The notes: generated by a model from the letters alone, not told the origin. 20,000 bases of DNA from an uncultured virus (IMG/VR IMGVR_UViG_3300003375_000022) (IMGVR_UViG_3300003375_000022); one strand, 5' to 3'. Counted from the first letter of the stretch, positions 3,859 through 19,999 are shown. Numbers and translations: made by a program.

Positions 3859-4176
3859 TTAAGTGAACTCGTATTGGTCATTGTTGTTTACTATCGTTGT
3901 TCTGAAAGGAAAAGAATCTTCAGGTATATTATCAAGTGTTTTCATTAATAATTTTGCTATAGAAAATGCTACATATTTTGTATTTTCCAAACTTATCTGA
4001 ATGTATAAACACTTATCACTCCCTTTTTCTGGGTATTTAGAATCTTTAATTTCATGAAAATGAACGATTATTTCTTTACCTAAAATTTTCGCTATTCTTA
4101 TTTTTTCTCCAACAAATCTTTTCCCTTCAACTTTTATGCCTAATTCGGAAAATTTTTTAATAGATTGATCTTTCAT
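3859..4176 (-). CDS. Hypothetical protein overlapping the DGR RT gene; candidate DGR accessory factor
   Basis: 105 aa, overlaps the RT 3' end by 20 nt. The sequence looks beta-rich (KKFSELGIK..FVGEKIRIAKILGKEIIVH..FPFRTTI) and unlike the Avd four-helix bundle. Confidence 0.7.
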   Translation of the reverse strand: MKDQSIKKFSELGIKVEGKRFVGEKIRIAKILGKEIIVHFHEIKDSKYPEKGSDKCLYIQISLENTKYVAFSIAKLLMKTLDNIPEDSFPFRTTIVNNNDQYEFT

Positions 4177-5122: not shown

Positions 5123-5204
5123 TAAACCTTTGCTTTAAAAGTAGTTTTCTTACTAAAATACTAACAACTTTATTCTAATCATTTATTTTTTACCTTGCTG
5201 GTAT

Positions 5205-5333
5205 GGTTTTATGCTGGTATTTTAAACATTTAGCATAGTCGGGAGGCGGAATTCGCATTCGCATTCGAATTGTCGTAATTCGTGTCGTTGAACTCGAATC
5301 CCGAAGAAACCGCCATCTTCACAGCATAAAACC
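5205..5333. repeat. Perfect 12-bp inverted repeat bracketing the TR
   Basis: GGTTTTATGCTG at 5205..5216 and CAGCATAAAACC at 5322..5333. Confidence 0.85.
5233..5310 (-). repeat. DGR template repeat (TR), part of the non-coding template RNA
   Basis: Minus strand: GTT TCT TCG GGA TTC GAG TTC AAC GAC ACG AAT TAC GAC AAT TCG AAT GCG AAT GCG AAT TCC GCC TCC CGA CTA TGC. 78 nt, 20 adenines, six AAY codons. Intergenic and directly upstream of the RT. Confidence 0.95.
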
Positions 5334-5352
5334 TTTTTCATATTTTTTCTTT

Positions 5353-5387
5353 GGATTTCATTGATCTATTGAAGATCAATGAAATCC
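5353..5387. other. 15-bp-stem hairpin/cruciform downstream of VR1, overlapping the target 1 stop codon
   Basis: GGATTTCATTGATCT (5353..5367), 5-nt loop, AGATCAATGAAATCC (5373..5387). Confidence 0.8.
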
Positions 5388-5842
5388 TTATCAACATCGA
5401 TGAATTTCTTCGCGTAATCTATGGCGCACTCTTCATTCGGAAAGCAAAGGCGGGAGGCGGAAACCGCATACGCAGACGAAAAGTCGTAAAACGTGTCGCG
5501 GAACTCGAACCCCGACGAAACCAAGTAGTACGGATACCATCTTCTTTCGTTTCGTTTGGCAACCCAATTTTCCCTATACACTTTTGATATACGCATCTTT
5601 TTTATAAATGCTCTTACAACTTTGTTTTCTGATTCATCAAAATTATCTATATTTACCACATCGTTTTTTTCGTTGTAGTTTCCTATAGATAAAACATCAT
5701 TGTAGTCGTTTATTCTTTCTGTAATTTTTTTATTGAAAAATTCTTTTCCAAAATTTAATTCAAGTATTTGTTTAAACTCCGAAGATGCAGATGGGTACAA
5801 TCTTAGTGCGTCGTGTTCGTTTAATTCTAATTGCTTTTTCAT
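5366..5842 (-). CDS. DGR target protein 1 (158 aa) carrying VR1 near its C terminus
   Basis: Contains VSSGFEFRDTFYDFSSAYAVSASRLCF. The start is better placed at 5842 (MKKQLEL) than at the track's 5920, because the leader AAAAACAGAAAAAATGAAAAA matches that of target 2. Confidence 0.9.
   Translation of the reverse strand: MKKQLELNEHDALRLYPSASSEFKQILELNFGKEFFNKKITERINDYNDVLSIGNYNEKNDVVNIDNFDESENKVVRAFIKKMRISKVYRENWVAKRNERRWYPYYLVSSGFEFRDTFYDFSSAYAVSASRLCFPNEECAIDYAKKFIDVDKDFIDLQ
5444..5521 (-). repeat. DGR variable repeat VR1
   Basis: 78-nt ungapped alignment to the TR with 15 mismatches: 14 at TR adenines and one T>G near the 5' edge. Confidence 0.95.
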
Positions 5843-5880
5843 TTTTTCTGTTTTTAAATATTTAATTATTTTAAAATTCG

Positions 5881-5899
5881 ATTTTTGCTTCGCAAAAAT
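5881..5899 (-). other. 8-bp-stem GAA-triloop hairpin downstream of target 2/VR2
   Basis: Minus strand ATTTTTGC-GAA-GCAAAAAT, about 20 nt after the target 2 stop codon. Confidence 0.7.
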
Positions 5900-5919
5900 T
5901 TGCAGAAGTTTTTCAATCA

Positions 5920-6408
5920 TTACTTCGTAATAAAATTTCTGTACTCATTAGTGAAAGTTTTTCCGGCATATTCTGCGAGTTCTTTGGTTTTGAAGCAAAG
6001 GCGGGAGGCGGAATCCGCACACGCACTCGAAGTGACGCAACGCGCGCCGTCGAACTCGAATCCCGAAGAAACCGAGTACCAAGAATACCATCTATTTTCT
6101 GAACCATCCATTTTAGGAATCCACCCTTCGTTTAATGCTTTAGCCAATAATACACATATCATTTCGTACTTGGAGTGCAGGAGCAGTTCATCACTTCCAT
6201 TATACTTTATTAAAGCTAAAACTTCTTTTGAAGGTTTTGTTATACTTAATACGTCCTTTAGTGTTTTAACCTTGCCTGTAATTGACTTTGGTTTGTTTTT
6301 TAATTTAGCCGCTTCTACTTTAGCGATTAGCGCTTTTTCTTTTTTAACGGCTAATTCTTTTTGTTGTGTAGCTGCTTTTAATTGCTGCTCTAATGTTTGT
6401 TTTTTCAT
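5920..6408 (-). CDS. DGR target protein 2 (162 aa), paralog of target 1 with an N-terminal coiled coil
   Basis: Contains VSSGFEFDGARCVTSSACADSASRLCF. Shares IT..I/V....DVLSI, W......E.RWY..Y and RLCF...E.A..Y with target 1. Confidence 0.92.
   Translation of the reverse strand: MKKQTLEQQLKAATQQKELAVKKEKALIAKVEAAKLKNKPKSITGKVKTLKDVLSITKPSKEVLALIKYNGSDELLLHSKYEMICVLLAKALNEGWIPKMDGSENRWYSWYSVSSGFEFDGARCVTSSACADSASRLCFKTKELAEYAGKTFTNEYRNFITK
5995..6072 (-). repeat. DGR variable repeat VR2
   Basis: 78-nt ungapped alignment to the TR with 14 mismatches, all at TR adenines. Confidence 0.97.
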
Positions 6409-8442: not shown

Positions 8443-11334
8443 TTATTGCAAATGTACAAAATGTTTATTTAACTTACGCAGAATATTTGTTCTAACGGTT
8501 TCTCCTTTTTTGGAAAGATTGTTTTCAAATTCTGGATTATACATAACTTCTTTAATGTAACCTAATTTTAAACGCTTCCAATTGCCTTCGTTGATTTCTG
8601 GGTGGTCGTGTGTGCCGTATCTATTTATTGCGCTGGCAAGTAATGCCGATTCTTCTTCTATTAATTCGTTGCTCCAATGTGTTTCATCAATAACGTCTTC
8701 TTCCAAAACTTCTTCTTCTGATTCTTCTGCATCCAGTTCTTGGATTTGTTTGTTTATTGAACTTATTTTTTGTTGTATTGAATTTGTGTAATCTTCGGTG
8801 TCTTCTTTTGGCGAAAGCTGTTTCAATAAATTTGACCTCTCTTGAATCAGTTCTTCTATGATTTCGTCATTCATTTCTTGTAAAGTTCCGCCTTCTTCGA
8901 ACTTATCAACATAATCCCAATCTTTATCCAATTCCCACGTAGTTACTATTTTTGTTGAATTTCCGTTCTCCAAGTTATACGTATTGTAATCTGGTTTGTA
9001 TTTTTTAATTACATAAACTGGATATTTTCCAAATAGTGGTTTACCTTTCATTCTATAGCCTTCCCCTATTTTGTCTTTTCCAAATGTTTCTGATTCTATA
9101 GTAGCTCCTTGCTCAAACATTTCGCGATGTTCTAATTCGTATTTCTGTATAGTTTCTTCGTCTAATAAATTCCTATTTACAGTCATTAGTTTTTTGCCTT
9201 TGTGATAAACAATCCAATTACCTTTAGGCGAAGAATCAACGGTAACGTCTTCTAAACTTATTTTGTTATCGCTAATTCTAATAGCTTTTAAAAATCTTTG
9301 AGCCTTAAAATCTAATTCTTTGTTTATAGTAGCTCCTTGCTCAAACTTATCAACGCCCATTGAATTAGATAATTCTTCTTGGAATTCTTCGTCTTGGAGA
9401 GTATCATTTAATGTTGCATACCAGTCTATTTTTCCATTATGTTTTTGAACATTGCCTTTAATATATTTATTAAAAATTATTTTGCCCTTTGGAGTTTTTG
9501 AAAGAAATTCTGATATTAACTTTACAGCAGAATCTATTGTTTTTTCCGGTATTTCATTTTCTGCAGAAATATAATCTCTTAAAACCTTACTTTCTACACC
9601 GCCTCCATCTTCAAATGTAGATATTAACTTAAACCTTGTTTTTAGTTCTTCTTTGGTTACAAGCATTTCACTACCACCAAAAAAACCTCCTTGTGTAGTT
9701 TTTAATTCGTATATGCCATCTTTTCCGAGTTTTTTAACCACGTAACGCTTTCCGTTAAACTCAACTTGTTTACCAATCCATTCTTCCCCAGTTATATTTC
9801 CGCCTTGCTCAAATTTCTCATTGCCTTTAACTACAGCTTTTAAAACTTTTAAAATATTATCATAAGTTTTTGGCATTTCCCATACGTTCATTTCGTCCCA
9901 AATTTTTGCACGAACCTTATAATCTAAATTATTTTCTTTTTCAAAATAAACCATTAGGTCTTTTAGGTCAGCTCCTTTTTTAACCTGAGCCTGCATGTAT
10001 CTTGCGGTTTCTTCTAATTTATATTCGGGAATAATAGTTGCTCCTTCTTCATGGGCGGCAACGTGCGTAACTTGCTCGCCACCTTTTTCTGCCAACACAG
10101 CGGTTACTTCCCACGGCTTCTTAGTTGCTTTAAAAGCTACGGCGGCTTTATTACGTGCTTCTAATGAAGTGTTTGCGTGTACTTCCATTTGTTTGCCTTT
10201 GTAGAAACATATATACCCATTAGCTCCTTCTGGACTCACTTCAATCTTTCTTTCTACGCCGCCTCCATCTGCAAATTTTTCTCCGTAAGAACCCGATAAT
10301 GGTTTGCCGCTTTTTAAAACTTTCTTAGCAACCTTCATGTAATTTTCGTAAGCTACTTTATCTTTAAAATCATTTTCTGAAAGATTATCAAAATACGCTT
10401 GATCCATATAAACAATAGCAAATTTATCTCCACTACCATTTACACCTATATAGCCAGTTGATTTTCCAAGTTCGCCAGCTTTCTTTTCGCGCTTATATAA
10501 ATCTACAGCTTTAATGTATTCTTCTTGAAAATTGCTCGAAGAACCATTTAATGCTCCATGACCACCTTGATTGTCGTAGTATTCTACTTGATACCAAATT
10601 TTAGGTTCTTCTTTTTTAAATGATTCTGAACTTAATAAAACTAAATATTTTCCGGAAGGATCACCCTCTGCTGTGCCATTAAATTGTTTGGCTAATTGCA
10701 TTGCTTTTGATTTACTAAATAAACCAGCGTCATTGTACCCGTCTTCGCTAATTCCATCTGCTTCCTGATTAAGATAATCCTGTTCTCCATAAACCCCGAT
10801 TTCTTTTAGTTTTTCAAGAGTCCGATTTAAGTCTTCTTGTGAAGTAGTATAGGTGCTTTTTGCATTTATTCCATGAGATTGTTTGTTTACAGTTGCTCCT
10901 TGCTCAAATCGTGTTCCGCCAACTTCTGTGTAAAGTTTTTTATACTTTTCGTATTCGTCTTTATGGAATTTCTTATGTTTAGCCCAATCTTTATCTCCTG
11001 GAAGATAAGATGCAGCCATAGTTTCGTGATGATTCATTTGTTTTTTATACTCCGCTTTTTTTAAGCCGTCTTTATCTATGGTTGCTCCTTTAGCGTATTT
11101 ACCAGTTGCCACATGGTCTTCTAATGCAACCCTAATGGCTGGCTCTAAATTAAAATAAATTGATGTTGCATAATTTTGTGTATTCAGCTTAGTATTGTTG
11201 TTTCCAAGTTCGGCTTTATGGATTCTATTGATTTCGACTTCGTGGTCTTTTAAGAAGTGGGTTCGTTGCGAAACGCTCCAATTATCCCAAATTGTTTTTG
11301 CATCTGCCTTGTACTGTTCTGATATTTTTTTCAT
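8443..11334 (-). CDS. Large modular (polyvalent/polyprotein-like) protein, 963 aa, with nine F/Y-E/A-x-G-G/A linker motifs
   Basis: Motifs start at aa 79, 142, 353, 427, 507, 573, 663, 739 and 811, separating unrelated modules that are mostly 63-90 aa long. Confidence 0.85.
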   Translation of the reverse strand: MKKISEQYKADAKTIWDNWSVSQRTHFLKDHEVEINRIHKAELGNNNTKLNTQNYATSIYFNLEPAIRVALEDHVATGKYAKGATIDKDGLKKAEYKKQMNHHETMAASYLPGDKDWAKHKKFHKDEYEKYKKLYTEVGGTRFEQGATVNKQSHGINAKSTYTTSQEDLNRTLEKLKEIGVYGEQDYLNQEADGISEDGYNDAGLFSKSKAMQLAKQFNGTAEGDPSGKYLVLLSSESFKKEEPKIWYQVEYYDNQGGHGALNGSSSNFQEEYIKAVDLYKREKKAGELGKSTGYIGVNGSGDKFAIVYMDQAYFDNLSENDFKDKVAYENYMKVAKKVLKSGKPLSGSYGEKFADGGGVERKIEVSPEGANGYICFYKGKQMEVHANTSLEARNKAAVAFKATKKPWEVTAVLAEKGGEQVTHVAAHEEGATIIPEYKLEETARYMQAQVKKGADLKDLMVYFEKENNLDYKVRAKIWDEMNVWEMPKTYDNILKVLKAVVKGNEKFEQGGNITGEEWIGKQVEFNGKRYVVKKLGKDGIYELKTTQGGFFGGSEMLVTKEELKTRFKLISTFEDGGGVESKVLRDYISAENEIPEKTIDSAVKLISEFLSKTPKGKIIFNKYIKGNVQKHNGKIDWYATLNDTLQDEEFQEELSNSMGVDKFEQGATINKELDFKAQRFLKAIRISDNKISLEDVTVDSSPKGNWIVYHKGKKLMTVNRNLLDEETIQKYELEHREMFEQGATIESETFGKDKIGEGYRMKGKPLFGKYPVYVIKKYKPDYNTYNLENGNSTKIVTTWELDKDWDYVDKFEEGGTLQEMNDEIIEELIQERSNLLKQLSPKEDTEDYTNSIQQKISSINKQIQELDAEESEEEVLEEDVIDETHWSNELIEEESALLASAINRYGTHDHPEINEGNWKRLKLGYIKEVMYNPEFENNLSKKGETVRTNILRKLNKHFVHLQ

Positions 11335-11352
11335 TTTATATTTATTAAATTT

Positions 11353-12009
11353 TTATTTAAGTGATTCTAACATTTCTATTGCTGTGTGGTATGCGCCATT
11401 CCATAATTCCTTTTCTTCTTCCGTTATATGTTCTTGGCGCAGCATCATATTAGCGGTTTCCAGTAAACCTTCGAACCTTTGTTGGTGGTCGTCAAAATCA
11501 ACTTCCTCTTCTTCGGTTATCGGCTCAAAACTTTCCGCATTAATTACTTCAAGAACAAACTCTGGAAGCTTTGCATATCCATCTTCGTAAACAAATGTAC
11601 TTATTTCTTTTGTAAGTGCCTTAAATTTAGCAGAAGTAGCTTCATCCATTGGTTTTTTAGTAAACGCAAAACCTATGTACATAGAAATTAATTCGGTTAT
11701 CTTTTCTATTCCTGTGTGTTGCTGCGCATACAATTCTAAATACCTTTGCACTATCCACCACTCACGAAGTTTAGCGCGCTCCGAAAACAAATCCGTTTCT
11801 GCCATAACCTTGTAAGCTATAACAATTAATCTGTCGTCATTAAACGCAATTTTATCTTGCATGTTTTCCATGTGTATTTTAGCGTCTACTTCGCGTAGCT
11901 TAAAGTACCAATCTTCTTTGTGGAAAACTGCTGGTATTTCGGATATGTGTTCTGTGAAATCTGTAAACTTAAATTTCGCTGAAACTATTTCTAATTCTTG
12001 TGCTTCCAT
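11353..12009 (-). CDS. Hypothetical acidic alpha-helical protein, 218 aa
   Basis: Packed between large co-oriented genes. No family recognised. Confidence 0.7.
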   Translation of the reverse strand: MEAQELEIVSAKFKFTDFTEHISEIPAVFHKEDWYFKLREVDAKIHMENMQDKIAFNDDRLIVIAYKVMAETDLFSERAKLREWWIVQRYLELYAQQHTGIEKITELISMYIGFAFTKKPMDEATSAKFKALTKEISTFVYEDGYAKLPEFVLEVINAESFEPITEEEEVDFDDHQQRFEGLLETANMMLRQEHITEEEKELWNGAYHTAIEMLESLK

Positions 12010-12014
12010 ATTTC

Positions 12015-15000
12015 TTAATCTAATAAAATTGTCATTTGCACCAACTCGTCAATAAGAAAATCTATTTCTTGTTTTGCCCTGTCTTCTGGCGCAACAAATT
12101 TAACCCTATTTTCTTCATCTATTTCAGTTAATTCAAATTCGTCGTTAAATTGTTCAAATGCGTAATCTGCTTTGTGTCTTTCAAAATATAAATTAGCAGT
12201 TGCAAAACTTGGCTTGCGTCTTAGTGCTTCAAATGCCAGCATCAATGAATTAAACTCTGTAAAGTTCATTTCTAATTGCGCTACATAACGCATTCCATAA
12301 TTCATGTAGTTTTCTAATTCAACTACATTTGTAGGGAAAAATGTTTTAAACTGTGTGCCGTAACCAAATCTAAATAACCCCAGCATTCTGCCCCTTGAAG
12401 ATATATCTTTAAATATAGCGCTCTTTCCAGCTATCCTGTAATTGCTGTCTGATATTTGAGTTCCAACTTCTTTTTGCAGATAGTAAGCAAAATAATCAAC
12501 CGCTTGTACGTTGTCGGAAATAACTTTAAAGGTTAGTGAATCTAACACGTTTTGTTTCGAAGGCACTTCTTCTAAGGATTCTTTATTGTTGTACGCCTTA
12601 ATGTTACCTAAGGATGTATAAAAATGATTGCTATCTGCATTGACGACAATAAATATTCCTCTTTCACGACTTGTTATTTGAAATACAAATTCATTTTGAA
12701 TTCTTTCTATTGTATCAATTGCCTCTTCGCCGTTTTTACGTTTTTTGTTTTCTTCGGAAGCTTTTCCAAACATTGCATAGTAAATGTAATCATACATAAA
12801 TTTATTTATGTTCTCTGGATTGCCGTCGTAATAAACAGGGTACTGTAATTGCGATTCAGGATTATAGCGTTCTTCCAGTATTTTATAAATAGACTTCTCT
12901 GGTTTTCTACTGTATTTTTCGTCTTCTTTTTTGTCAGACAATTCTATGCCAAGTCTTGTTCTTCCGTCTTTGTAATTAAATTTAATTATCTGACCAGTTA
13001 ATCCGTTTTTACGTGATAAACTATATGTACGAGGTAAACTACCTACAAGAATGTATTTATCTTCTCTGTATGAGTTATCGAACTTGCCAGCTATCTCATT
13101 CCACATTCCTTTGTATGAATCCGCAATCAATGTTATAGCCTCTGTTTCTTTATATCCTAATGCTTTTTCTTCGTCAGTGAATTTTTTATTGAATTTATAA
13201 ACACTGTAAACAAATTTTTCGGAAACACCAGCTAAATGTATTTCAAATTTACTTGGAGTCAAGTCCCATATATCGTAAGGAAAAGAAACGCCAGTCATTA
13301 CAACTGATTGCCTTGAAGATTCTTTATAAGTTACGCTTTTTACATTCCATCCGTTTTCGTCAAACTCTTTGTTTTCTTCGTACACAACTAAATCAAACAC
13401 CTTGCCTATTTGACCAATGTATTCTTTCCCTTTTTTAACTAATGAACTAAACTCGCTGATTAATTTTAGGTTTGAATTTATTTTCTTTTCCTTGTATTCT
13501 ATTTCTTCTTCGGCTCGCTTTGCTTCTCTTTTAATTTCACGCTGCTCACTTTTTTGAGAAAGTATTTCTGAAACAAGAGCGAATTTTTCTTCAAGCTCTT
13601 TTTTTCTTTTATTGCTTTCGTTCATTTCTAAAGAAAGTTTACCAACTTCCTCCATATTTCCTTCAATAGCAGCCTTTGTTATAGCTTCTGCTCTTGATTT
13701 CGCAGATTCGTTTATTTCGTTTAGTTCTTTTTCGGTTGCAAGCGCGTCATCAAGTTTTTCAAACTTTCTTAAGGTTCCTTGAATCTTAGATAGCTCGGCT
13801 TTTAACTCAACAACTTCTTCTTCTGATTGCTTAATCTGTGTTTGGTAGAACTCGGTTTTTTCTTTTTCAAATCCATCCAACCTTTCTTTTGCTTTTGGCT
13901 GAAAATCAGATAATCTTGAAAAATACAAATCTTCTTTTACCGTTGAACCAACAGAACTACTTCCTTCTGGAGCCAATTTAATTTTAAGGTGGTCGGTAAT
14001 AGCTTCCGTTATTTTTCTTTCCGTGTTTTTTTCTTTAAATAATTGTACGTTAACTTTTTCTATTGAACTATGTCTTCCGAAAGAAGTTTTGGCATGGTTG
14101 TCGCCAACAAAGAAAGGCGCACTAAATACGGTTTCTGCCAAGTAATCTTTCTGTGTCATTTTACCCTTAAACAACCCAAGTTTTATTTGATTTTCAATAT
14201 ACTCTTTTAAGCGCTTGGCAAATGTTTCGTAAAAATCTTTTTGGAATTGGAATGGTTTAAAGTAAAGTGTTTTTGAATAATCTTTAATTTGCGAGCCGCG
14301 TCTAACTGGTTCTCTGCTAACTCTTAAATCCTTCATTGTTTCGTTGAACGGTTCAACAGCTTCGTCACTGAAGAAGTCATCAAAAGAAAACATATACGAA
14401 CCCTGTTCTTGGTTAGAACTAACGTTTGCAGACAACGAACGTAATTTCTGTTCCATTAAAGCTGTTAGTCTTGCTTCAGAAGGTATGGCTGAAATTATAT
14501 AGGTATATTCTGGTTCATAAACTTGACCAGTACGATTAATGCGCCCAAGTTTTTGAACTTCTTTATTTATATCTAACTCCATTTGGGTGATAACCATTGC
14601 ACGCTTCTTAACCTCTTTTTTATTTTCAAGAGTTGAAGGAGCAGCATCAATCACAACGCCGTCTTCGCCTTTAACTGGCTTTCCGTCTTCTCCTAATGGC
14701 GTTTCATATACGATGTTAGCTACGTTATTCGGAAGCGCGTGCATAGATATACCCACTGCCCCGCTTTGGTTTATTAAAAGACAGTCTATTGCGTTTTCAT
14801 TAAAATCACGAACCAACACATCCGTCTTAATAATATTTCTTTTTGAAATTGTGCCGTAATCTGTTTCTGTGTCTTCAAAATTAATGCAGCGCTGGCGACC
14901 AGTAATTTCGTTTATAGAAAACCCTGCGTCATGAATATTCTTTTTAATCATATCCAAAGGCGCAATAGGAATACCAGTATCGGTTCCAAGTATTTCTTGT

Positions 15001-17144
15001 ATTAAACTAACGTATTCATTAAATAGCTGGTCTTTAATTTTAGTTGATAACTCATCGTCTGAATCTAAAACATAAACCGTTTCTTTTATTTCTTCTTGCT
15101 GCCCTTCATCGTTAACAGAAATTTTAATTTCATTCCAACGCATGGTGTAGTTAAGTAGGTAAGCCATGTAAAGTGAGAAATCATTTTTAATTTTATCCCC
15201 TACTTTATATGAATCAACGCTTACATTACTCATAAATGTTTTCGACATATTGTCTAACGCTGATTCCATTGTGCTGGCAACCGTTACAACAACCTTTCTG
15301 CCATTTTTTAAATTCTCTATAGCACGTTCGCTTGACTGCCTAACTTTTAAGCCAAGCAACATAAAGTTAAATAAATTAAACGCTAAGGCATTTACGCCGC
15401 GCGCTTGTTTTATTTTTGCCTTTTCTTCTGTATTTAAGTTGCTTTTATGTTCTGATACAACCACTCTAACTTTATCTGCAAAATCAAGAACCTTACTATA
15501 TAGTACAGCTATTCTGTCTAATTTATTTATTTGGTTATCGCCAGTTTCTGAACCTTCTTTTTCATAATAGTATTTTGAAACACCTTGAATCAATTTTTCC
15601 CTACGCAACAATTGTCCGTTTCTTGTAAGTTCTGCCGATACCGCTTCTTGCAAAGCGTTTCCTCCAGCAATAAACACATCAACCAACTCCTCGTCATTTA
15701 ATCCAGACTCCCTTATGCTTGTTCTTAAAGCATACAAAGGCATGTTATCTGGACGCTTGGCATAGGTAGCTGATAAATACGTTACCATAGATGCCGCCTT
15801 AATCATTGGAGCCATAATTTCCCCAACATTAGAAGTTATTCCAGATGCAGTATGGCTTTCATCAAGCACAAGTACGCATTTCCTTTTATCGTCAAAAACA
15901 TAGCGCTGTAATAGCAGCGTTTTTGGGTGTAATGATTTTGTTCCGGCTATGTATGGTCTACTAACTTGACTGTATGGTATTGCCATCATTCCAAATTCAG
16001 CGGGTAGTTCCATGTCTGACATCTTTAAATCAACATCTGGCTTTGGAGATTTTTTGCCGTCAGATTTATATTTCCATATTTTTTGTAATTCCTTATTTGT
16101 AATTGAAGGATAGATTACATTTCCTTGTGCGTCTTTTATTTCTATTCCGGAATACGGTATGTAAGGTCTGAATAATTTTTTGCCTTCTCTTAAAGCGGTT
16201 GTTACATTTTTAGCGTATGTTTCTCTGTCAACTGGTTCGTAAACATCTCTTCCGTTTTCAAGATAATGCTGTCTGTATAATTCTATTAGTTCAGCAGTAA
16301 TGTTTTCTATTTCGTCGAAGTTTTCGTTTGTATCGTCAGCACCTTTAACCAAGTATTCGTTTTCCCACCAATCAGGAAAAGAATAATCAACTAAAGTTAC
16401 TTCTTCGTTGTCTTTAATGTCTCTTCTGATTTCACGGAGTATGTAGGTGTCTGTTAGTTCAGATGAATCAATTTCTATTTTTTTTCTTAATACGGTTGGT
16501 ACGCCCGCGTCGAATCCAATGGCTATTAAATCCCTGTATATGTCGTTTATTAAATGTTTTTTTTCTGTAAAAAATATTGGCATAGCTTTTAATTCAAGTG
16601 CCGCGTATCTTAAAATTCCAGCCGCCTGCCTGCCTTTACCAATCCCAGTTTGATCGGCAATAATAATAGCATCGCCGCCGTTTTCATAATTAAAAATAGC
16701 GGTTGCAATAGCGTCGATTTGCTCTCTTGAAAAACGAACTATTTTGCGACCAGCTTCATCTAATTTGTTTGGCTCGTAACATAAGTCTTCAACACTTCTG
16801 TAATGTAATTTCTTAGCTACATATTCCTCTACGGTTAAGCCTAAAATAGCAATTGCATTTTTTAAATACTCGTTAAATTTACGCTGCTCAACAGCCATTG
16901 AATTTGGAACAACGGTATCTAAAGTTGCACCCATTTCGGAAGCGGAATAATACGGTGTTTGTATTTGATCTTCAGCTTCAACAGTTGCACCTAATTCAAA
17001 CTTTTGCGCATTTATTTTTTTTACATCTGTACAAAACAAGTTGTCTGATTTTGTTTTGTCTTTATAAAATTTACTTTCGTTGTCTTTGTAGAATTGGTCG
17101 TCAACTGGTTTGTAAAATTTTTCTTCTATTAATACTGTTTCCAT
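12015..17144 (-). CDS. Strawberry notch-like SF2 helicase (AAA_34/Helicase_C_4 type), 1709 aa
   Basis: IIADQTGIGKGRQAA (motif I), VLDESH (II), YLSATYAKRPDNMPLY (III), EITGR, LLINQSGAVGISMHA (V) and QKLGRINRTGQV (VI), followed by a long coiled coil and an unknown C-terminal region. Confidence 0.9.
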   Translation of the reverse strand: METVLIEEKFYKPVDDQFYKDNESKFYKDKTKSDNLFCTDVKKINAQKFELGATVEAEDQIQTPYYSASEMGATLDTVVPNSMAVEQRKFNEYLKNAIAILGLTVEEYVAKKLHYRSVEDLCYEPNKLDEAGRKIVRFSREQIDAIATAIFNYENGGDAIIIADQTGIGKGRQAAGILRYAALELKAMPIFFTEKKHLINDIYRDLIAIGFDAGVPTVLRKKIEIDSSELTDTYILREIRRDIKDNEEVTLVDYSFPDWWENEYLVKGADDTNENFDEIENITAELIELYRQHYLENGRDVYEPVDRETYAKNVTTALREGKKLFRPYIPYSGIEIKDAQGNVIYPSITNKELQKIWKYKSDGKKSPKPDVDLKMSDMELPAEFGMMAIPYSQVSRPYIAGTKSLHPKTLLLQRYVFDDKRKCVLVLDESHTASGITSNVGEIMAPMIKAASMVTYLSATYAKRPDNMPLYALRTSIRESGLNDEELVDVFIAGGNALQEAVSAELTRNGQLLRREKLIQGVSKYYYEKEGSETGDNQINKLDRIAVLYSKVLDFADKVRVVVSEHKSNLNTEEKAKIKQARGVNALAFNLFNFMLLGLKVRQSSERAIENLKNGRKVVVTVASTMESALDNMSKTFMSNVSVDSYKVGDKIKNDFSLYMAYLLNYTMRWNEIKISVNDEGQQEEIKETVYVLDSDDELSTKIKDQLFNEYVSLIQEILGTDTGIPIAPLDMIKKNIHDAGFSINEITGRQRCINFEDTETDYGTISKRNIIKTDVLVRDFNENAIDCLLINQSGAVGISMHALPNNVANIVYETPLGEDGKPVKGEDGVVIDAAPSTLENKKEVKKRAMVITQMELDINKEVQKLGRINRTGQVYEPEYTYIISAIPSEARLTALMEQKLRSLSANVSSNQEQGSYMFSFDDFFSDEAVEPFNETMKDLRVSREPVRRGSQIKDYSKTLYFKPFQFQKDFYETFAKRLKEYIENQIKLGLFKGKMTQKDYLAETVFSAPFFVGDNHAKTSFGRHSSIEKVNVQLFKEKNTERKITEAITDHLKIKLAPEGSSSVGSTVKEDLYFSRLSDFQPKAKERLDGFEKEKTEFYQTQIKQSEEEVVELKAELSKIQGTLRKFEKLDDALATEKELNEINESAKSRAEAITKAAIEGNMEEVGKLSLEMNESNKRKKELEEKFALVSEILSQKSEQREIKREAKRAEEEIEYKEKKINSNLKLISEFSSLVKKGKEYIGQIGKVFDLVVYEENKEFDENGWNVKSVTYKESSRQSVVMTGVSFPYDIWDLTPSKFEIHLAGVSEKFVYSVYKFNKKFTDEEKALGYKETEAITLIADSYKGMWNEIAGKFDNSYREDKYILVGSLPRTYSLSRKNGLTGQIIKFNYKDGRTRLGIELSDKKEDEKYSRKPEKSIYKILEERYNPESQLQYPVYYDGNPENINKFMYDYIYYAMFGKASEENKKRKNGEEAIDTIERIQNEFVFQITSRERGIFIVVNADSNHFYTSLGNIKAYNNKESLEEVPSKQNVLDSLTFKVISDNVQAVDYFAYYLQKEVGTQISDSNYRIAGKSAIFKDISSRGRMLGLFRFGYGTQFKTFFPTNVVELENYMNYGMRYVAQLEMNFTEFNSLMLAFEALRRKPSFATANLYFERHKADYAFEQFNDEFELTEIDEENRVKFVAPEDRAKQEIDFLIDELVQMTILLD

Positions 17145-17157
17145 AGTTTTTATTTGT

Positions 17158-17823
17158 TTATGCTAAATTTTGGTGCGCAAATACTGGTCGTTTACATTTT
17201 TCACATACGTTTGTGAATTTAGGCTGATCTCCATAGCCGATATGTTGACACGAACCACATTCGTATTTGAAGTTTTTTATTGCTGGCGCTAAAACTGCGG
17301 TTTCTAATTTTATTCTTAATTCATGTCCAGCCAGTTTTTTTGTAACTGCTTTCCATAAAGCGCCGTGTCCATCTGTTTCTTTATGCTGGTCATCTAATCT
17401 ATGTAAATGACCTATGTGTTTTTTATCGAAATGGAATATTTCAAAAATAATTGCGTGTGATATTTCGTGCAAAATTACGTCGCGCATATTTTGTTTCCAA
17501 TTCAAATCATGCTTAGTATATTGTATAGAAACGTAAATATTTTTACCATGTTTTGATTTTCCAATCATTCCTGATGCAGCAGAACATAAACCAGCCCATT
17601 CTTTAGAACTACCGAATTGGAATTTCCAACCGCGTTCTTGTAAATTCATTTCCTTGTAGTCGGCAATATACTTTTTAAGTTTTGGGATAGTTTTAATCTT
17701 AGATAGGTAGTCTATATTTATAAGACTTGCGCCGTATGCAATTGTTTCTGCAATGATATCTGGATTAGCGTTTACTTTTCCAGCTTCTTTATATAAGTCT
17801 TCTATGAATGAGTCGAAGTTCAT
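17158..17823 (-). CDS. SprT-like zinc metalloprotease with C-terminal zinc ribbon
   Basis: WAGLC, VILHEISHAI (HExxH), HGALWK third-ligand motif, then YECGSC...CEKC. Confidence 0.85.
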   Translation of the reverse strand: MNFDSFIEDLYKEAGKVNANPDIIAETIAYGASLINIDYLSKIKTIPKLKKYIADYKEMNLQERGWKFQFGSSKEWAGLCSAASGMIGKSKHGKNIYVSIQYTKHDLNWKQNMRDVILHEISHAIIFEIFHFDKKHIGHLHRLDDQHKETDGHGALWKAVTKKLAGHELRIKLETAVLAPAIKNFKYECGSCQHIGYGDQPKFTNVCEKCKRPVFAHQNLA

Positions 17824-17829
17824 TTTATT

Positions 17830-17985
17830 TTATTTTTTTAATAAATCCTTGACTCCAACGAAATAATTTTTGCCATACGCTTCTTCTAATTGTTCTTTGG
17901 TATAGCTATAATAATCATGTACTATACATGGAGAAGATTTCATTATTTTTATTTCTTCTTCCGTGAAAACCACACAGCTCTTCAT
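17830..17985 (-). CDS. Small hypothetical protein, 51 aa (below the ORF-track cutoff)
   Basis: MKSCVVFTEEEIKIMKSSPCIVHDYYSYTKEQLEEAYGKNYFVGVKDLLKK* fills the gap between the kinase fusion and the SprT-like gene. Confidence 0.45.
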   Translation of the reverse strand: MKSCVVFTEEEIKIMKSSPCIVHDYYSYTKEQLEEAYGKNYFVGVKDLLKK

Positions 17986-18012
17986 AAGTTCTTCTATGGG
18001 CGTTTTTTGGTT

Positions 18013-19999
18013 TTACTTCTCATCTTTTACGTAAAAAACCGTGTCTATAAAATACAAAACTCCTTTTTTGGTTAAAACATTTTCGTCATGAATGTCTTGT
18101 AAATGAATTCCTAATTCGGAATTGTAATAATCAAAGTTTTCTGTATTCTCAAATCCTTTGTCTAAAAGAAAGCTACTCACTAATTGTAAATCTGCTTTTT
18201 CTGTATCTTCAATTAAAGGTTGCTTAACCACAGAGAACAGGCAACCATTTTTTTCGGTAAATCCAATTAGTTCGTAATATGTACCTGGGAAAAAGTAATT
18301 GTGCAAAATAAGACTGTTCAGGTATTTTTCCCAAGAACTATAAAACCAGCAGCTATTTGCCTTTAACGTGTGTTTTTTGTCATAAAAATAAACATCGTGT
18401 TCATTCCCCTGACCAGCAAATTTTTCTTCGTCTAATTTTTCAATCCAAATGTTTTTAGATTTAGCATACTTCTTTAATTCGCTTGCTTCTTTATTTTTGA
18501 AGTGCTGCGGTGTTTCACTCTTATTATTTGAGCCCTTAATTTTTCTAAGGTAAATGGCTGCTGATTGGATAGCTGATCCTCTTGTAACTTTGCTAACTCC
18601 TGAAATGATGTCGTTGATTTCATTTTTATTTGTTTTATTTGTTGATTTTAAAATTCCTCCGTTTGAAAATTCTTCCGCTTTATGATTTTCATCCAACCAA
18701 TTTAAAGCGTGTATATGTGCATTGCCATAGCTGTATATTTTTATTTTACCTTGCGCTTGTAATTCAATGGCAAAGTCGCTAAGTGTTTTTCTTGCCTGAC
18801 CAGAAGTAATTGTTGATTTTGGATCGTTCCAAGATTCGTAGGCTTCTATAACTTTAATTGGTATTTCTTGTTTTATAGTAGCGCCTTGTTCGTAACGACC
18901 TTCTTGAGAATCTTCTTGTTGTTTTTTATGCAGTTTATCTAATTCTAAAAAAAAGGTATTCGTATATTGTATCCCTTTGTTTTTTAGCCAAACATACACG
19001 CACAACATAGCTTCTTGTTCTGATTCTTGTTTCTTATATTTATAGTACGCAGCAAACTCTTTATCTTCTTTAGATAACCCTACAGAAGACCTTTGTCTAC
19101 TAAGTTCATCAGATATTTCCTTCTTGGTTCGTCCAAAGAAGTTTCTATCCGCCTGTTGACATACATGTTGGATTTCGTGAAGCAATGCGGCTTCTTTTGA
19201 GCATTCCGATTGGCTTTCGCCGATTTTGAATTTTTCATGTTTATTTTTTTTATAATAGTTTAGATGTAACCCTATATATATTTTACTCAACCCATAGCTG
19301 GTTCCTGATTCAATTTCAGATTCAGCGTCGTCGTCACCTTTAATTGAAACGAAATATACTAATATTTTTTTGGCTTTTGGATATTTATTAAAAAATTCTT
19401 TATGCTCTATGATTTTACTTAGAGGTAATGGCTTGCCTGTATCGCATAATGAATACGCTTTTTCTGTGGTTATTTTCCACTTATACTCAGAATCATCTAT
19501 GTTTTCTGTAAAATATTCCGCACCTACATTGCCTCCAAATAGTTTTTTTTCTACTTCTTTGGGGCAACCAATAACAGCCAGCACGCCATCTTTTAGTTTA
19601 ATGGTTTTAAATTTCTTTTTGACAAAATGCTTCGGGTCTTCTTGGCGCATTCTTATAACGGTTATTCCTTCGTCTATGCCATCCTCAAAACCGTGTTCTG
19701 TAGCCCACTTTTTAGCTTGGGCTTGCGTAAAGTTCTTCTTTTCAAAAAGCAGGGTTTGTATTTTTGTTCCTTCTGGACAGAATTTTTGGATAGTTGTGCC
19801 TTTTTCAAACTTAGGCTCTACTATCGGATTACCGCCTTCTGATTGGTTTATCTTACTTAATGTTTTCCAGTGCTTTTTAACGGCTTTTTTAGTGATAATA
19901 GCTTCACCAAGCTCAATTTCTACTGGTCTTCTGCTGTCATCTACTATAACGGCTTGAACGCCTCCGTCGACATGAAGTTTTCCTCCGATGTTTCCTCCC
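18013..19999 (-). CDS. Polyvalent protein (5' end off window): small domains, LPD23-like/zincin metallopeptidase, and C-terminal polyvalent-protein Ser/Thr/Tyr kinase
   Basis: The frame is open upstream of the track's Met 19650 to the window edge (GRNIGGKLHVDGGVQAV...). It contains LSKIIEHKEFFNKYP...LLHEIQH...Y....SEQEA (metallopeptidase) and GQGNEHDVY...LHNYFFPGTYYELIGF...VVKQP...LQDIHDENVL...FIDT (Kinase-PolyVal-like). Confidence 0.85.
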   Translation of the reverse strand, partial: GGNIGGKLHVDGGVQAVIVDDSRRPVEIELGEAIITKKAVKKHWKTLSKINQSEGGNPIVEPKFEKGTTIQKFCPEGTKIQTLLFEKKNFTQAQAKKWATEHGFEDGIDEGITVIRMRQEDPKHFVKKKFKTIKLKDGVLAVIGCPKEVEKKLFGGNVGAEYFTENIDDSEYKWKITTEKAYSLCDTGKPLPLSKIIEHKEFFNKYPKAKKILVYFVSIKGDDDAESEIESGTSYGLSKIYIGLHLNYYKKNKHEKFKIGESQSECSKEAALLHEIQHVCQQADRNFFGRTKKEISDELSRQRSSVGLSKEDKEFAAYYKYKKQESEQEAMLCVYVWLKNKGIQYTNTFFLELDKLHKKQQEDSQEGRYEQGATIKQEIPIKVIEAYESWNDPKSTITSGQARKTLSDFAIELQAQGKIKIYSYGNAHIHALNWLDENHKAEEFSNGGILKSTNKTNKNEINDIISGVSKVTRGSAIQSAAIYLRKIKGSNNKSETPQHFKNKEASELKKYAKSKNIWIEKLDEEKFAGQGNEHDVYFYDKKHTLKANSCWFYSSWEKYLNSLILHNYFFPGTYYELIGFTEKNGCLFSVVKQPLIEDTEKADLQLVSSFLLDKGFENTENFDYYNSELGIHLQDIHDENVLTKKGVLYFIDTVFYVKDEK

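What the first reader, a model, noticed from the sequence alone, without database searches (positions are those of the whole stretch)
8881..19812. Shared F/Y-E/A-x-G-G/A tag punctuates several giant proteins at module boundaries: candidate polyprotein-cleavage or virion-loading system
Seen in the 963-aa protein, nine copies: KYAKGATI 11077..11100, RFEQGATV 10888..10911, KFADGGGV 10255..10278, AHEEGATI 10033..10056, KFEQGGNI 9793..9816, TFEDGGGV 9595..9618, KFEQGATI 9325..9348, MFEQGATI 9097..9120, KFEEGGTL 8881..8904. Spacings are 63, 211, 74, 80, 66, 90, 76 and 72 aa. Seen elsewhere: KFELGATV (16980..17003) just before the helicase core, and KFEKGTTI (19789..19812), RYEQGATI (18874..18897) and EFSNGGIL (18649..18672) between the domains of the peptidase-kinase protein. 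The intervening modules are unrelated to each other. Established: adenovirus, ASFV and poxvirus maturation proteases cut at xGG/AG-type sites, and polyvalent proteins (Iyer/Aravind) are thought to be delivered with incoming DNA. Inference: the tag marks cargo for packaging and/or proteolytic release of many small anti-host effectors from a few polyproteins.
Basis: partly seen in the sequence, partly recalled or inferred. Interest (0 to 1): 0.85.

Follow-up and report, generated by a model that had tools for sequence, protein, structure and literature searches.

The report
Conserved joint motif in phage polyproteins
Three large phage proteins are strings of unrelated small modules joined by one short conserved peptide (aromatic-Ala/Glu-x-Gly-Gly), which many uncultured phages share, which resembles the spot where phage T5 cuts its tail ruler protein, and which is probably a cutting or hinge joint, although no cut has been shown.

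Summary
All 13 sites are at the stated coordinates. The 963-aa protein carries 8 strict copies against 0.03 expected by shuffling, and the window's other ORFs carry none.

The tag is a local form of a wider joint, K-[FYM]-[AE]-x-G-G-x-[VIL]. It sits in linkers between modules that evolve independently. Homologues match single modules whose edges fall on the tags. Many modules also occur as stand-alone 57-140-aa genes without tags. A close relative swaps cassettes exactly at the tags. AlphaFold gives a confident four-helix module with low-confidence tags on both sides.

In a 170-kb viral contig, all 21 DNA matches to the tag fall in a 12.5-kb stretch: 20 in two adjacent giant genes and one in the next gene. 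Polyvalent proteins with ART, topoisomerase and kinase domains carry the same tags.

In lambda the motif occurs only in the tape measure protein gpH, within the C-terminal part that is cut off. T5 cuts its tape measure at R|AEGG.

Cleavage here is inferred, not shown. No clan-CE protease was found. The zincin-like domain bracketed by tags is absent from the 170-kb contig. Virion loading is untested.

The parts
8443..11334 (-). P0001, 963 aa. A cassette polyprotein of 11 unrelated segments (A, x, B, C, D, E, F, G, H, I, J) with 9 joint tags.
   Evidence: ORF and translation. No Pfam or PHROG family. Homologues match module by module. Segments are mutually unrelated.
11077..11097 (-). Tag 1, YAKGATI (residues 80-86), after module A
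   Evidence: In homologues the end of module A is followed by a tag in 21 of 22 cases.
10888..10908 (-). Tag 2, FEQGATV (residues 143-149)
   Evidence: The relative P0004 starts its shared part just after this position.
10255..10275 (-). Tag 3, FADGGGV (residues 354-360), between modules C and D
   Evidence: In homologues module C ends at a tag (10) or at the protein end (18) in 38 cases.
10033..10053 (-). Tag 4, HEEGATI (residues 428-434), between modules D and E
   Evidence: AlphaFold pLDDT is below 50 just before module E. Four stand-alone module-D proteins stop exactly at the aromatic position.
9814..10032 (-). Module E (residues 435-507), a four-helix unit
   Evidence: AlphaFold2 with alignment A4 gives pLDDT 85-92. 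Stand-alone homologues of 88-108 aa exist. No match in PDB.
9793..9813 (-). Tag 5, FEQGGNI (residues 508-514)
   Evidence: F-E lies at the end of the last helix, and confidence then falls (block means 67, 49, 39).
9595..9615 (-). Tag 6, FEDGGGV (residues 574-580)
9325..9345 (-). Tag 7, FEQGATI (residues 664-670), before module H
   Evidence: Alignments to module H start at residues 660-675.
9097..9117 (-). Tag 8, FEQGATI (residues 740-746), after module H
   Evidence: Thirty-four alignments end at residues 735-739. P0009 ends just before this position.
8881..8901 (-). Tag 9, FEEGGTL (residues 812-818), before the C-terminal module J
   Evidence: In P0004 module F is joined directly to J through one tag.
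12015..17144 (-). P0002, 1709 aa, a Strawberry-notch-type helicase protein with one tag, FELGATV, at residues 49-55 (16980-17000)
   Evidence: Pfam AAA_34 and Helicase_C_4. Tag. The single copy is not significant alone.
17158..17823 (-). A 221-aa SprT-like zincin, a stand-alone candidate peptidase
   Evidence: Pfam SprT-like at 29.9 bits, cut-off 25.6.
18013..19998 (-). P0003, which runs 10 codons beyond the window (full length 671 aa, P0161). Order: N-terminal module, tag, module, LFGGNV, zincin-like domain, tag, module, tag, Kinase-PolyVal.
   Evidence: Tags: FEKGTTI at 19789-19809, YEQGATI at 18874-18894, FSNGGIL at 18649-18669.
18913..19521 (-). Zincin-like (HEIQH ... EQEAM) domain of P0003, bracketed by GG tags
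   Evidence: No Pfam family. Atlas leads to SprT-like, LPD23, M78 and M48. Catalytic residues and both flanking GG motifs are kept in 4 of 4 homologues.
18025..18498 (-). Kinase-PolyVal domain of P0003
   Evidence: Pfam PF18762, E = 1.1e-53.

Best explanation
The tag is the local form of a widespread inter-cassette joint, consensus K-[FYM]-[AE]-x-G-G-x-[VIL], used by phages of low-GC, probably Bacteroidota, hosts. These phages use it to string small, unrelated, independently folding modules into giant proteins.

Shown:
- The joint lies in flexible linkers exactly at module borders.
- The same modules exist elsewhere as separate small genes without the joint.
- Close relatives insert, delete and replace cassettes exactly at the joints.
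- The joint is restricted to a few giant proteins per genome.
- It also flanks known polyvalent-protein domains (ART, topoisomerase IB, kinase, zincin-like).

Inferred:
- The joint is a peptide signal read by a common factor, most likely a protease that cuts the chain into its modules. This would make these proteins true phage polyproteins.
- The cut may fall just after the aromatic residue. Phage T5 cuts its tape measure protein at R|AEGG, and four stand-alone module-D proteins end exactly at that residue.
- The protease is not identified. Candidates are the tag-bracketed zincin-like domain of the kinase protein, the neighbouring SprT-like protein, or a host enzyme.
- The same short joint also serves as the seam at which cassettes are exchanged.
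For: 1. Enrichment and restriction.
- P0001 has 8 strict copies against 0.028 expected, and there are none in the other 2763 aa of the window.
- In the 169,658-bp viral contig G001, all 21 matches to the DNA pattern for [FY]-A-x-G-G lie at 151,269-163,789 on one strand. Twenty are in two adjacent ORFs of 1656 and 1939 aa and one is in the next ORF. The reversed-pattern control gives 1.
- Across that contig there are 30 tags in 3595 aa of giant proteins, against 13 in 43,946 aa of other ORFs.

2. Module borders.
- P0001 has 363 relatives with E <= 0.001; the best 150 were examined. Their matches begin and end at the tags.
- In the hits, a module end is followed within 12 aa by a tag or by the protein end in 21+0 of 22 (A), 10+18 of 38 (C), 7+11 of 28 (D) and 17+6 of 25 (E). 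A random position is that close to a tag 10% of the time.

3. Stand-alone forms.
- 29 of 33 hits of 140 aa or less have no tag.
- Viral contig L003 and the Bacteroidota MAG loci L013 and L014 carry the modules as separate small ORFs.

4. Cassette exchange. P0004, 85% identical to P0001 in its best local alignment, differs from it by replacements and deletions whose breakpoints fall on tags.

5. Structure. AlphaFold2 with an alignment gives pLDDT 85-92 for module E. The model's residues 1-6 and 8-17, which run into the upstream tag (residues 14-20), score below 50. Confidence falls across and after the downstream tag, with block means of 67, 49 and 39.

6. The signal is at peptide level.
- An unbiased logo of 521 GG sites in 45 giants has F/Y/M at -3 in 64% (background 11%), A/E/K at -2 in 73%, and V/I/L at +3 in 54%.
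- The window encodes GG mostly as GGA/GGC (19 of 20 codons). G001 uses mostly GGT (41 of 61).

7. Polyvalent proteins. All 4 homologues of the zincin-like domain keep GG tags on both flanks and carry kinase, topoisomerase IB or ART-PolyVal domains. ART-PolyVal ends at residue 180 and the tag IRFKKGG follows at 188-194.

8. Precedent.
- In lambda's 52 CDS (13,029 aa) the motif occurs only in gpH, at residues 733, 778 and 848. These lie in the glycine-rich C-terminal part that is cleaved off, and how that cut is catalysed is stated to be unknown (PMC12617516, passages).
- T5 pb2 is cut after R1127 (PMC10038345, passages). In the T5 record that position reads ...SFVPR|AEGGMM.

9. Spread. A scan of IMG/VR for two A-K-G-G tags 59-69 aa apart found 119 stretches. 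Of the 80 fetched, 10 loci (9 contigs) hold giants with 5-24 tags.
Against: - No cleavage product, proteome or read evidence exists for any of these proteins.
- No protease travels consistently with the tags. G001 (82% complete) has 30 tags but no SprT-like or LPD23 match. It shares with the window only RusA, a GIY-YIG endonuclease, a methylase and the modules.
- The conserved neighbours of other giants (an AAA ATPase, phrog_249, and unknowns) are absent here.
- Pfam does not recognise the zincin-like domain of P0003.
- 17 of 63 long hits carry the same modules with no tag at all, so modules can be fused without the joint.
- Module H is followed by a tag in only 2 of 50 cases.
- The T5 site has R, not an aromatic residue, at the first position. 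The lambda cut is placed only roughly, at about residues 690-710, some 25-40 residues before the first tag.
- Codon choice inside tags is more uniform within an element than elsewhere: GCT in 20 of 22 tag codons against 73 of 132 in G001, and the rare GAG in 4 of 5 FEQ copies here. This fits DNA-level exchange at the joints as well.
- The logo set was chosen for having at least 3 tags, so positions -3 and -2 are partly circular. Position +3 is not.
Confidence: 0.45

Rival explanations
1. The joint is an uncut hinge or docking joint. The proteins work as beads on a string. The conserved joint is a flexible break with two hydrophobic anchor residues that binds a common partner, such as a chaperone, the portal or tail channel, or nucleic acid. 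Alternatively it lets the chain thread through a narrow channel module by module.
For: - The tags lie in low-confidence linkers.
- Tags occur singly, in doublets 4 residues apart (GG-xxxx-GG), and as near-pure tandem arrays. Thirty-four small lysine-rich proteins of 180 aa or less consist of KKKG[YM]AKGG repeats with no cassette between them. That suggests a multivalent binding unit.
- Related giants sit beside tail-fibre, SLT-like and lysis genes.
- The part of lambda gpH that holds the tags is unresolved in cryo-EM (PMC12617516 passages).
Against: - The same modules function as separate small genes elsewhere, which fits release better than permanent tethering.
- No partner has been identified.
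- T5 does cut at a site of this type.
Confidence: 0.25
2. The joint is mainly a recombination seam. It is kept because its short conserved DNA gives microhomology for shuffling cassettes within and between phage genomes. The peptide itself is only a tolerated linker.
For: - Cassettes are exchanged exactly at tags between close relatives.
- Codon use inside tags is unusually uniform within an element.
- G001 encodes a RecT-like annealing protein.
- A RusA gene lies next to the giants in the window and in several loci.
Against: - The peptide is conserved across elements that encode it with different codons: GGA/GGC here, GGT in G001.
- The flanking positions -4, -3 and +3 are constrained at amino-acid level.
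- Fifteen bases is very short for homologous exchange.
- Tandem tag arrays with no cassettes between them are not explained.
Confidence: 0.15
3. The tag is a virion-loading signal. It targets the carrier protein to the capsid or tail interior, like the capsid-targeting sequence of T4 internal proteins or the cargo-loading peptides of encapsulins (both recalled). Cleavage may or may not follow.
For: - Giants in G001, L022, L030, L072, L073 and L085 lie in blocks with tail-fibre, tail-spike, virion-structural, SLT-like and lysis genes.
- The motif is native to tape measure proteins, which sit inside the tail.
- Iyer et al. 2017 argue that polyvalent proteins travel with the DNA (passages).
Against: - In the window the three tagged genes follow a DNA-modification and recombination block (Tet/JBP, PD-(D/E)XK, methylase, RusA), not recognisable structural genes.
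- No capsid or tail protein of this phage is in the 30 kb held.
- Nothing was tested.
Confidence: 0.1
4. The tag is a chance or low-complexity artefact, or the repeated edge of one structural repeat fold.
For: The motif is short, and glycine pairs are common in linkers.
Against: - The shuffle tests.
- The restriction to two genes in 170 kb.
- The modules are unrelated.
- Stand-alone homologues lack the tag.
- The AlphaFold model shows no repeat fold.
Confidence: 0.02

Closest known systems
Polyvalent proteins of phages and conjugative elements (Iyer, Burroughs, Anand, de Souza, Aravind 2017, PMC5512222; passages read)
   Same: - These are large multidomain proteins of phages.
- P0003 carries the family's Kinase-PolyVal domain, and homologues of its zincin-like domain carry ART-PolyVal.
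- The paper predicts processing of such proteins by zincin-like metallopeptidases and delivery together with the DNA.
   Different: - In the main text the words linker, glycine, boundar-, interdomain and spacer have 0 occurrences. No joint or cut-site motif appears in the text I could search. Its supplementary files on an FTP site were not seen.
- P0001 and 17 of the 20 related long proteins scanned have no Pfam family at all, and none has a polyvalent-protein domain.
- Their cassettes are small modules of unknown function, not enzymes.
Maturation of tape measure proteins: lambda gpH to gpH* plus gpHC, and T5 pb2 cut after R1127
   Same: - The same five-residue motif is involved. Lambda gpH has FATGG at 733 and YATGG at 778, and no other lambda protein has the motif.
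- The T5 cut site reads R|AEGGMM.
- Both are cuts in a glycine-rich flexible region of a long virion protein, with no catalyst identified.
   Different: - No Pfam or PHROG search run on the window proteins or the related giants returned a tape measure family.
- The tags here occur up to 9 times per protein (24 in relatives), not once or twice.
- The resemblance of the N-terminal module of P0003 to the lambda segment GEFVFTKEA is not significant: BLASTP E = 21, hhalign probability 0.2%.
- The lambda cut is not mapped to the residue.
Gly-Gly-X polyprotein processing by clan CE proteases (adenain, ASFV pS273R, poxvirus I7), recalled from knowledge
   Same: A small Gly-Gly core with an upstream hydrophobic residue at module borders of virion polyproteins.
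   Different: - The hydrophobic residue is one position further from GG than in the recalled adenain consensus.
- Pfam matched no clan CE protease in any ORF scanned across the 30 kb held.
- The host is a bacterium.
Junction motifs of polymorphic toxins (VENN in CdiA, DPxGL in Rhs), recalled from knowledge
   Same: A short conserved peptide marks the seam at which variable cassettes are exchanged. In Rhs it is also a cut site.
   Different: - Those systems have one seam per protein, before a single C-terminal toxin.
- Here there are many seams between cassettes of unknown function.
- There is no sequence likeness.

Membership tests
Polyvalent proteins (Iyer et al. 2017) | Two or more domains of the polyvalent-protein repertoire in one polypeptide of a phage or conjugative element | tested here: met
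   Met for P0003: Kinase-PolyVal at E = 1.1e-53 plus a zincin-like HExxH domain. P0002 has AAA_34 plus Helicase_C_4. Phage context: GIY-YIG homing endonuclease, DGR-type reverse transcriptase and RusA.
Polyvalent proteins (Iyer et al. 2017) | The same, applied to the 963-aa protein P0001 | tested here: not met
   No Pfam and no PHROG family. It is linked to the class only by the shared joint and by gene neighbourhood.
Polyvalent proteins (Iyer et al. 2017) | A zincin-like metallopeptidase domain able to process the protein | tested here: inconclusive
   HEIQH and EQEAM are invariant in 4 of 4 homologues. No Pfam match. The Atlas gives leads only.
Tape measure proteins | A recognisable TMP domain (Pfam TMP_2, Tape_meas_lam_C, TMP_N/C or a PHROG tape measure family) | tested here: not met
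   No such family was returned for the window proteins, for any of the 20 related long proteins scanned with Pfam, for any of the 41 giants scanned with PHROGs, or for the G001 giants. The lambda and T5 controls do match.
Tape measure proteins | Gene position between tail chaperone genes and distal tail or baseplate genes | tested here: inconclusive
   In the window the neighbours are DNA-metabolism genes and unknowns. In G001, L022 and L073 the giants lie upstream of SLT-like, tail-fibre or tail-spike genes, but no tube or chaperone gene was recognised.
Tape measure proteins | The [FY]-A-x-G-G joint in a glycine-rich flexible segment | tested here: met
   Lambda gpH at residues 733 and 778. 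The window tags. Logo.
Clan CE Gly-Gly-X polyprotein maturation (adenovirus, ASFV, poxvirus) | A clan CE cysteine protease encoded by the element | tested here: not met
   No such Pfam family in 38 ORFs or ORF pieces of the window and L001. Only 30 kb of the 74-kb contig is held.
Clan CE Gly-Gly-X polyprotein maturation (adenovirus, ASFV, poxvirus) | Observed cleavage at the Gly-Gly site | not testable with these tools
   This needs proteomics or an expression assay.
Structural repeat protein | Repeated units that are related in sequence or fold, with the motif inside the fold | tested here: not met
   Units are unrelated. The tag lies outside the confident fold. Stand-alone homologues lack it.

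The most novel reading that the evidence does not exclude
Phages of bacteria run a true polyprotein system. Dozens of small proteins that other phages encode as separate genes are made as giants of up to more than 2000 aa and released by cuts at one shared code, [FYM]|[AE]-x-G-G. This is the same code at which lambda and T5 cut their tape measure proteins. The protease behind that classic, still unexplained maturation step (phage-encoded or host-encoded) would then have hundreds of further substrates. The tandem KKKG[YM]AKGG mini-proteins would be cut into short basic peptides that travel with the DNA.
Probability: 0.3. Interest if true: 0.85.

Novelty: new variant of a known kind. Interest (0 to 1): 0.72.

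Why it matters
Polyvalent proteins were predicted in 2017 to be processed, but no cut-site signal appears in the text I could search. How lambda gpH is cut is stated to be unknown in a 2025 paper.

A single short joint links three things: cassette polyproteins with no known domains, bona fide polyvalent proteins, and tape measure maturation. That turns both questions into simple experiments: mutate the joint and look for fragments.

It also gives a rule for cutting hundreds of giant 'dark' phage proteins into their real functional units for annotation and structure prediction. And it shows that arrays of small genes and giant fused genes are two ways of writing the same gene pool.

Tried and rejected
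- **AlphaFold2 of the whole 963-aa protein without an alignment.** Mean pLDDT was 35.7, which is unusable.
- **Global MAFFT alignments of several modules at once.** Modules C and E were misplaced, so these alignments were not used for folding.
- **Complex prediction** of the zincin-like domain (alignment A6, residues 168-372) with Zn and a 36-residue tag peptide of P0001. The result was no verdict and counts neither way.
- **Foldseek of module E against PDB.** Nothing at E <= 0.001.
- **Homology of the N-terminal module of P0003 to the lambda gpH joint region.** BLASTP was not significant. A three-sequence HMM found the module only in P0075 and P0045, not in gpH or pb2. hhalign probability was 0.2%. 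Rejected.
- **Internal translation starts at the tags.** GGA GCx/GGx gives GGAG, but no start codon follows and relatives use other codons. Rejected.
- **GenBank phage collection.** No relative of P0001 or P0003. P0002 gave only 25-27% identity hits.
- **Window contig in IMG/VR.** Not found.
- **Literal searches of papers** for YAKGG, FADGG, FEKGG, FAKGG, MADGG and FEQGA. The 25 papers listed (of 317 found) were unrelated.
- **Paper searches** for polyvalent protein + proteolytic + virion + mass spectrometry, and for polyprotein + bacteriophage + Bacteroidota + cleavage site. Nothing relevant.
- **Cluster names for 8 relatives.** All unnamed or 'hypothetical protein'.
- **A conserved protease next to other giants.**
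  - PDB sequence searches of three upstream genes of L046 found only a RelA/SpoT-like stretch.
  - The Atlas had nothing for the 287-aa upstream gene.
  - Upstream genes are conserved among L046, L068, L086 and L072 but are not shared with the window or G001.


Full report
**The observation.** All genes in the flagged region lie on the minus strand.

In the 963-aa protein (P0001, 8443-11334) the nine tags start at residues 80, 143, 354, 428, 508, 574, 664, 740 and 812. That reproduces the stated spacings.

I shuffled each protein 5000 times:
- The strict pattern [FY][EA].G[GA].[ILV] has 8 copies in P0001 against a mean of 0.028 (maximum 2).
- A looser pattern has 9 copies against 0.08.
- The kinase protein has 3 loose copies against 0.05.
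- The single copy in the helicase protein is not significant alone.

The window's other 14 ORFs (2763 aa) have none. A metagenome contig that overlaps the window end (L001, identical over the shared 77 bases) adds 10 kb upstream. Its 15 ORFs (2484 aa) give one match to a broader pattern. It also shows that the kinase protein starts 10 codons beyond the window (full length 671 aa). The 11 segments of P0001 are unrelated to one another (best E = 0.22).

**What the proteins are.**
- P0001 matches no Pfam or PHROG family.
- P0002 has the two Strawberry-notch helicase domains.
- P0003 ends in a Kinase-PolyVal domain (E = 1.1e-53).
- A 221-aa SprT-like zincin lies between P0002 and P0003.
- Pfam does not recognise the middle of P0003. 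It has HEIQH and EQEAM, which are invariant in its four homologues. The protein Atlas gives SprT-like, LPD23, M78 and M48 as leads.
- Upstream lie Tet/JBP, PD-(D/E)XK, DNA methylase and RusA genes.
- Downstream lie a diversity-generating retroelement and a GIY-YIG homing endonuclease.

This is a phage. Relatives of one module sit in contigs binned as Bacteroidota.

**The tag marks module borders.** A full HMMER search of 1.84 billion representative proteins found 363 relatives of P0001 with E <= 0.001. I examined the best 150. Each relative matches one or a few modules.

The starts and ends of the matches pile up at the tags: ends at residues 85-95, 350-360, 425-430, 505-515 and 735-745, and starts at 365-370, 425-435 and 660-675.

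In the relatives themselves, a module's end is followed within 12 residues by a tag or by the end of the protein:

| Module | Tag follows | Protein ends | Cases |
|---|---|---|---|
| A | 21 | 0 | 22 |
| C | 10 | 18 | 38 |
| D | 7 | 11 | 28 |
| E | 17 | 6 | 25 |
| H | 2 | 17 | 50 |

A random position lies that close to a tag 10% of the time. Module H is often followed by untagged sequence.

Of the 33 relatives of 140 aa or less, 29 carry no tag, so the modules are independent small proteins elsewhere. Four different stand-alone module-D proteins stop exactly at the aromatic position of the tag (...VTHVADF...HTADF...HTANF...HTPSF). Stand-alone module-E proteins begin where the fused forms have GG.

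In viral contig L003, five separate small ORFs each match one module of a tagged giant. In two Bacteroidota MAG contigs, module E is a small ORF within a row of small ORFs.

P0004 is 85% identical to P0001 in its best local alignment. Relative to P0001 it has one cassette inserted after FADGG, module E replaced by two other cassettes, and G-H-I deleted. Every breakpoint falls on a tag.

**Structure.** Folding all of P0001 without an alignment failed (pLDDT 35.7). Folding residues 415-530 with 11 homologues gave a four-helix module E at pLDDT 85-92. The model's residues 1-6 and 8-17, which run into the upstream tag (residues 14-20), score below 50. The F-E of the downstream tag sits at the end of the last helix, and confidence then falls, with block means of 67, 49 and 39. 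The tag is therefore a linker element, not part of a repeat fold. Module E has no match among solved structures.

**The wider joint.** The relatives carry YAKGG, FADGG, MADGG, FEKGG and similar tags every 60-100 residues, up to 23 in a 2187-aa protein. Of the 20 long relatives scanned, 17 have no Pfam family. No PHROG search of the 41 giants returned a tape measure family.

I built a logo of all 521 GG pairs in 45 such giants:
- F/Y/M at -3 in 64% (background 11%).
- A, E or K at -2 in 73%.
- K, D or N at -1.
- V, I or L at +3 in 54%.

The set was chosen for having tags, so only position +3 is fully independent.

In the 169,658-bp viral contig G001, a DNA pattern for [FY]-A-x-G-G matches 21 times. 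All matches are on one strand between 151,269 and 163,789. Twenty lie in two adjacent ORFs of 1656 and 1939 aa. The reversed-pattern control gives 1. Across that contig's ORFs there are 30 tags in 3595 aa of giants, against 13 in 43,946 aa elsewhere.

A scan of IMG/VR for two A-K-G-G tags 59-69 aa apart found 119 stretches. Of the 80 fetched:
- 10 loci (9 contigs) hold giants of 533-2101 aa with 5-24 tags.
- 34 hold small lysine-rich ORFs that are almost pure KKKG[YM]AKGG repeats.
- 13 are intermediate.
- 10 have 0-2 tags and include unrelated glycine-rich proteins.
- 13 had no reading frame with two AKGG.

**Link to polyvalent proteins.** Of the 4 proteins found with the zincin-like domain (one is P0003 itself in full length), two end in the kinase domain, one carries a type IB topoisomerase and one carries two ART-PolyVal regions. 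All four keep an LFGG/LYGG motif just before the zincin-like domain and a Y-x-x-G-[GAS] tag just after it. ART-PolyVal ends at residue 180 and IRFKKGG follows at 188-194.

Iyer et al. 2017 predict processing of polyvalent proteins by such peptidases. In the main text the words linker, glycine, boundar-, interdomain and spacer do not occur. I read passages only and did not see their supplementary files.

**Link to tape measure proteins.** Earlier notes of this scan reported the same aromatic-x-x-Gly-Gly joints in giant tape measure proteins and pointed to lambda gpH. I tested that lead.
- In the lambda record, gpH has FATGG at 733 and YATGG at 778, plus FSGGG at 848. None of the other 51 proteins (13,029 aa in all) matches.
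[quoted passage not shown] It places gpH* at roughly residues 1-710 and states that how the cut is catalysed is unknown (PMC12617516, passages).
- For T5, the cut in pb2 was mapped after R1127 (PMC10038345, passages). In the T5 record this reads ...SFVPR|AEGGMMYPG. That is a cut between the first and second positions of a tag-like A-E-G-G-x-M site, with R where the aromatic residue would be.
[quoted passage not shown] I saw only the title.

The proteins here are not recognisable tape measure proteins. The likeness of the first module of P0003 to the lambda segment between its two tags is not significant.

**Mechanism.** A conserved eight-residue footprint with two hydrophobic positions, sitting in a disordered linker between unrelated domains, points to recognition by a common factor. 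Because the same modules work as separate small proteins in other phages, release by cleavage is the simplest reading. The T5 cut and the four stand-alone proteins that end at the aromatic residue suggest a cut right after that residue. This step is inferred.

Evidence against a phage-encoded zincin as the general protease:
- G001 has 30 tags but no SprT-like or LPD23 match.
- G001 shares no candidate protease with the window.
- Other giants have different conserved neighbours: an AAA ATPase and unknowns, with lysis genes and RusA downstream.

A host enzyme therefore remains possible.

The codons speak for both levels. The peptide is the same, while the window uses GGA/GGC and G001 uses GGT. 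Within each element the tag codons are more uniform than elsewhere. That fits cassette exchange at the joints.

Two observations show the joint is neither obligatory for fusion nor merely a seam. Seventeen of 63 long relatives fuse the same modules without tags. The tandem-tag mini-proteins have no cassettes between their tags.

**Virion association.** This is untested. The hints are the gene neighbourhoods of related giants:
- tail fibre, SLT-like lytic protein and endolysin in G001;
- similar neighbours in L022, L030 and L072;
- tail spike in L073;
- a virion structural protein in L085.

In the window itself the neighbours are DNA-metabolism genes.

**Verdict.** The joint is a new variant within known kinds (polyvalent proteins and tape measure maturation). 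My searches of the literature found no description of it.

Noticed in passing
window 3859-6408: A diversity-generating retroelement. It has a reverse transcriptase (4157-5122, phrog_1423 at E = 4e-118) and a template repeat at 5231-5337. Two variable repeats lie at the 3' ends of two paralogous genes: 5442-5548 in the 184-aa ORF and 5993-6099 in the 162-aa ORF, both phrog_11581. Of the mismatches to the template, 19 and 20 fall on template adenines, against 15 and 14 on the other three bases together.
   Followed up: partly
L021, L023, L025, L037, L038, L052, L054, L056, L076 and others (34 of the 80 loci): Small ORFs of 78-177 aa that are very lysine-rich and consist almost wholly of tandem KKKG[YM]AKGG[AM]M units, often with a central ...MVP.FAMDGKGKM piece. 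In L038, L054 and L060 the gene lies between a phrog_3704 gene and the terminase and portal genes. Their function is unknown. They show that the tag can be amplified on its own.
   Followed up: partly
G001 (L008-L009), about 84-116 kb: About 13 paralogous genes of 246-354 aa resemble the window-adjacent DNA methylase (L001 8653-9363; BLASTP E = 1e-13 to 3e-5). That is an unusually large methylase family for one phage contig.
   Followed up: no
window 19900-19998 and L001 9973-10077 (N-terminus of P0003): The first 70 residues (GG..GGK.H.DGG[VI]...E.GE.II.KKA...) recur as an internal module right after a tag in P0075 and P0045. They look like the lambda gpH segment GGKYEPAGIVHRGEFVFTKEA, but the likeness is not statistically supported.
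   Followed up: yes
P0050, P0052, P0065 (relatives carrying module E): Several tagged proteins begin with a hydrophobic helix, MLPLILVAVGAYLIGDSVL. Some carry an EF-hand-like piece, KNLDVNKNGKLDAEDFKML, next to tags (also seen in P0008).
   Followed up: no
L001 2270-3139 and 8653-9363: A Tet/JBP-type dioxygenase (E = 4e-27) and an N6/N4 DNA methylase lie upstream of the polyvalent cluster. This suggests that the phage modifies its DNA bases.
   Followed up: no
window 9097-10908: Four of the five F-E-Q tags use the rare GAG codon for Glu within the same string, TTTGAGCAAGG. Across the window's ORFs GAG is used 81 times against 470 for GAA. This hints at recent copying between tags at DNA level.
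   Followed up: partly
L046 709-2607: A 632-aa protein lying four genes upstream of a 1381-aa tagged giant has a RelA/SpoT-like stretch (PDB 1vj7, E = 1.4e-5). The same gene block with an AAA ATPase (phrog_249) recurs in L068, L086, L072 and L073.
   Followed up: partly
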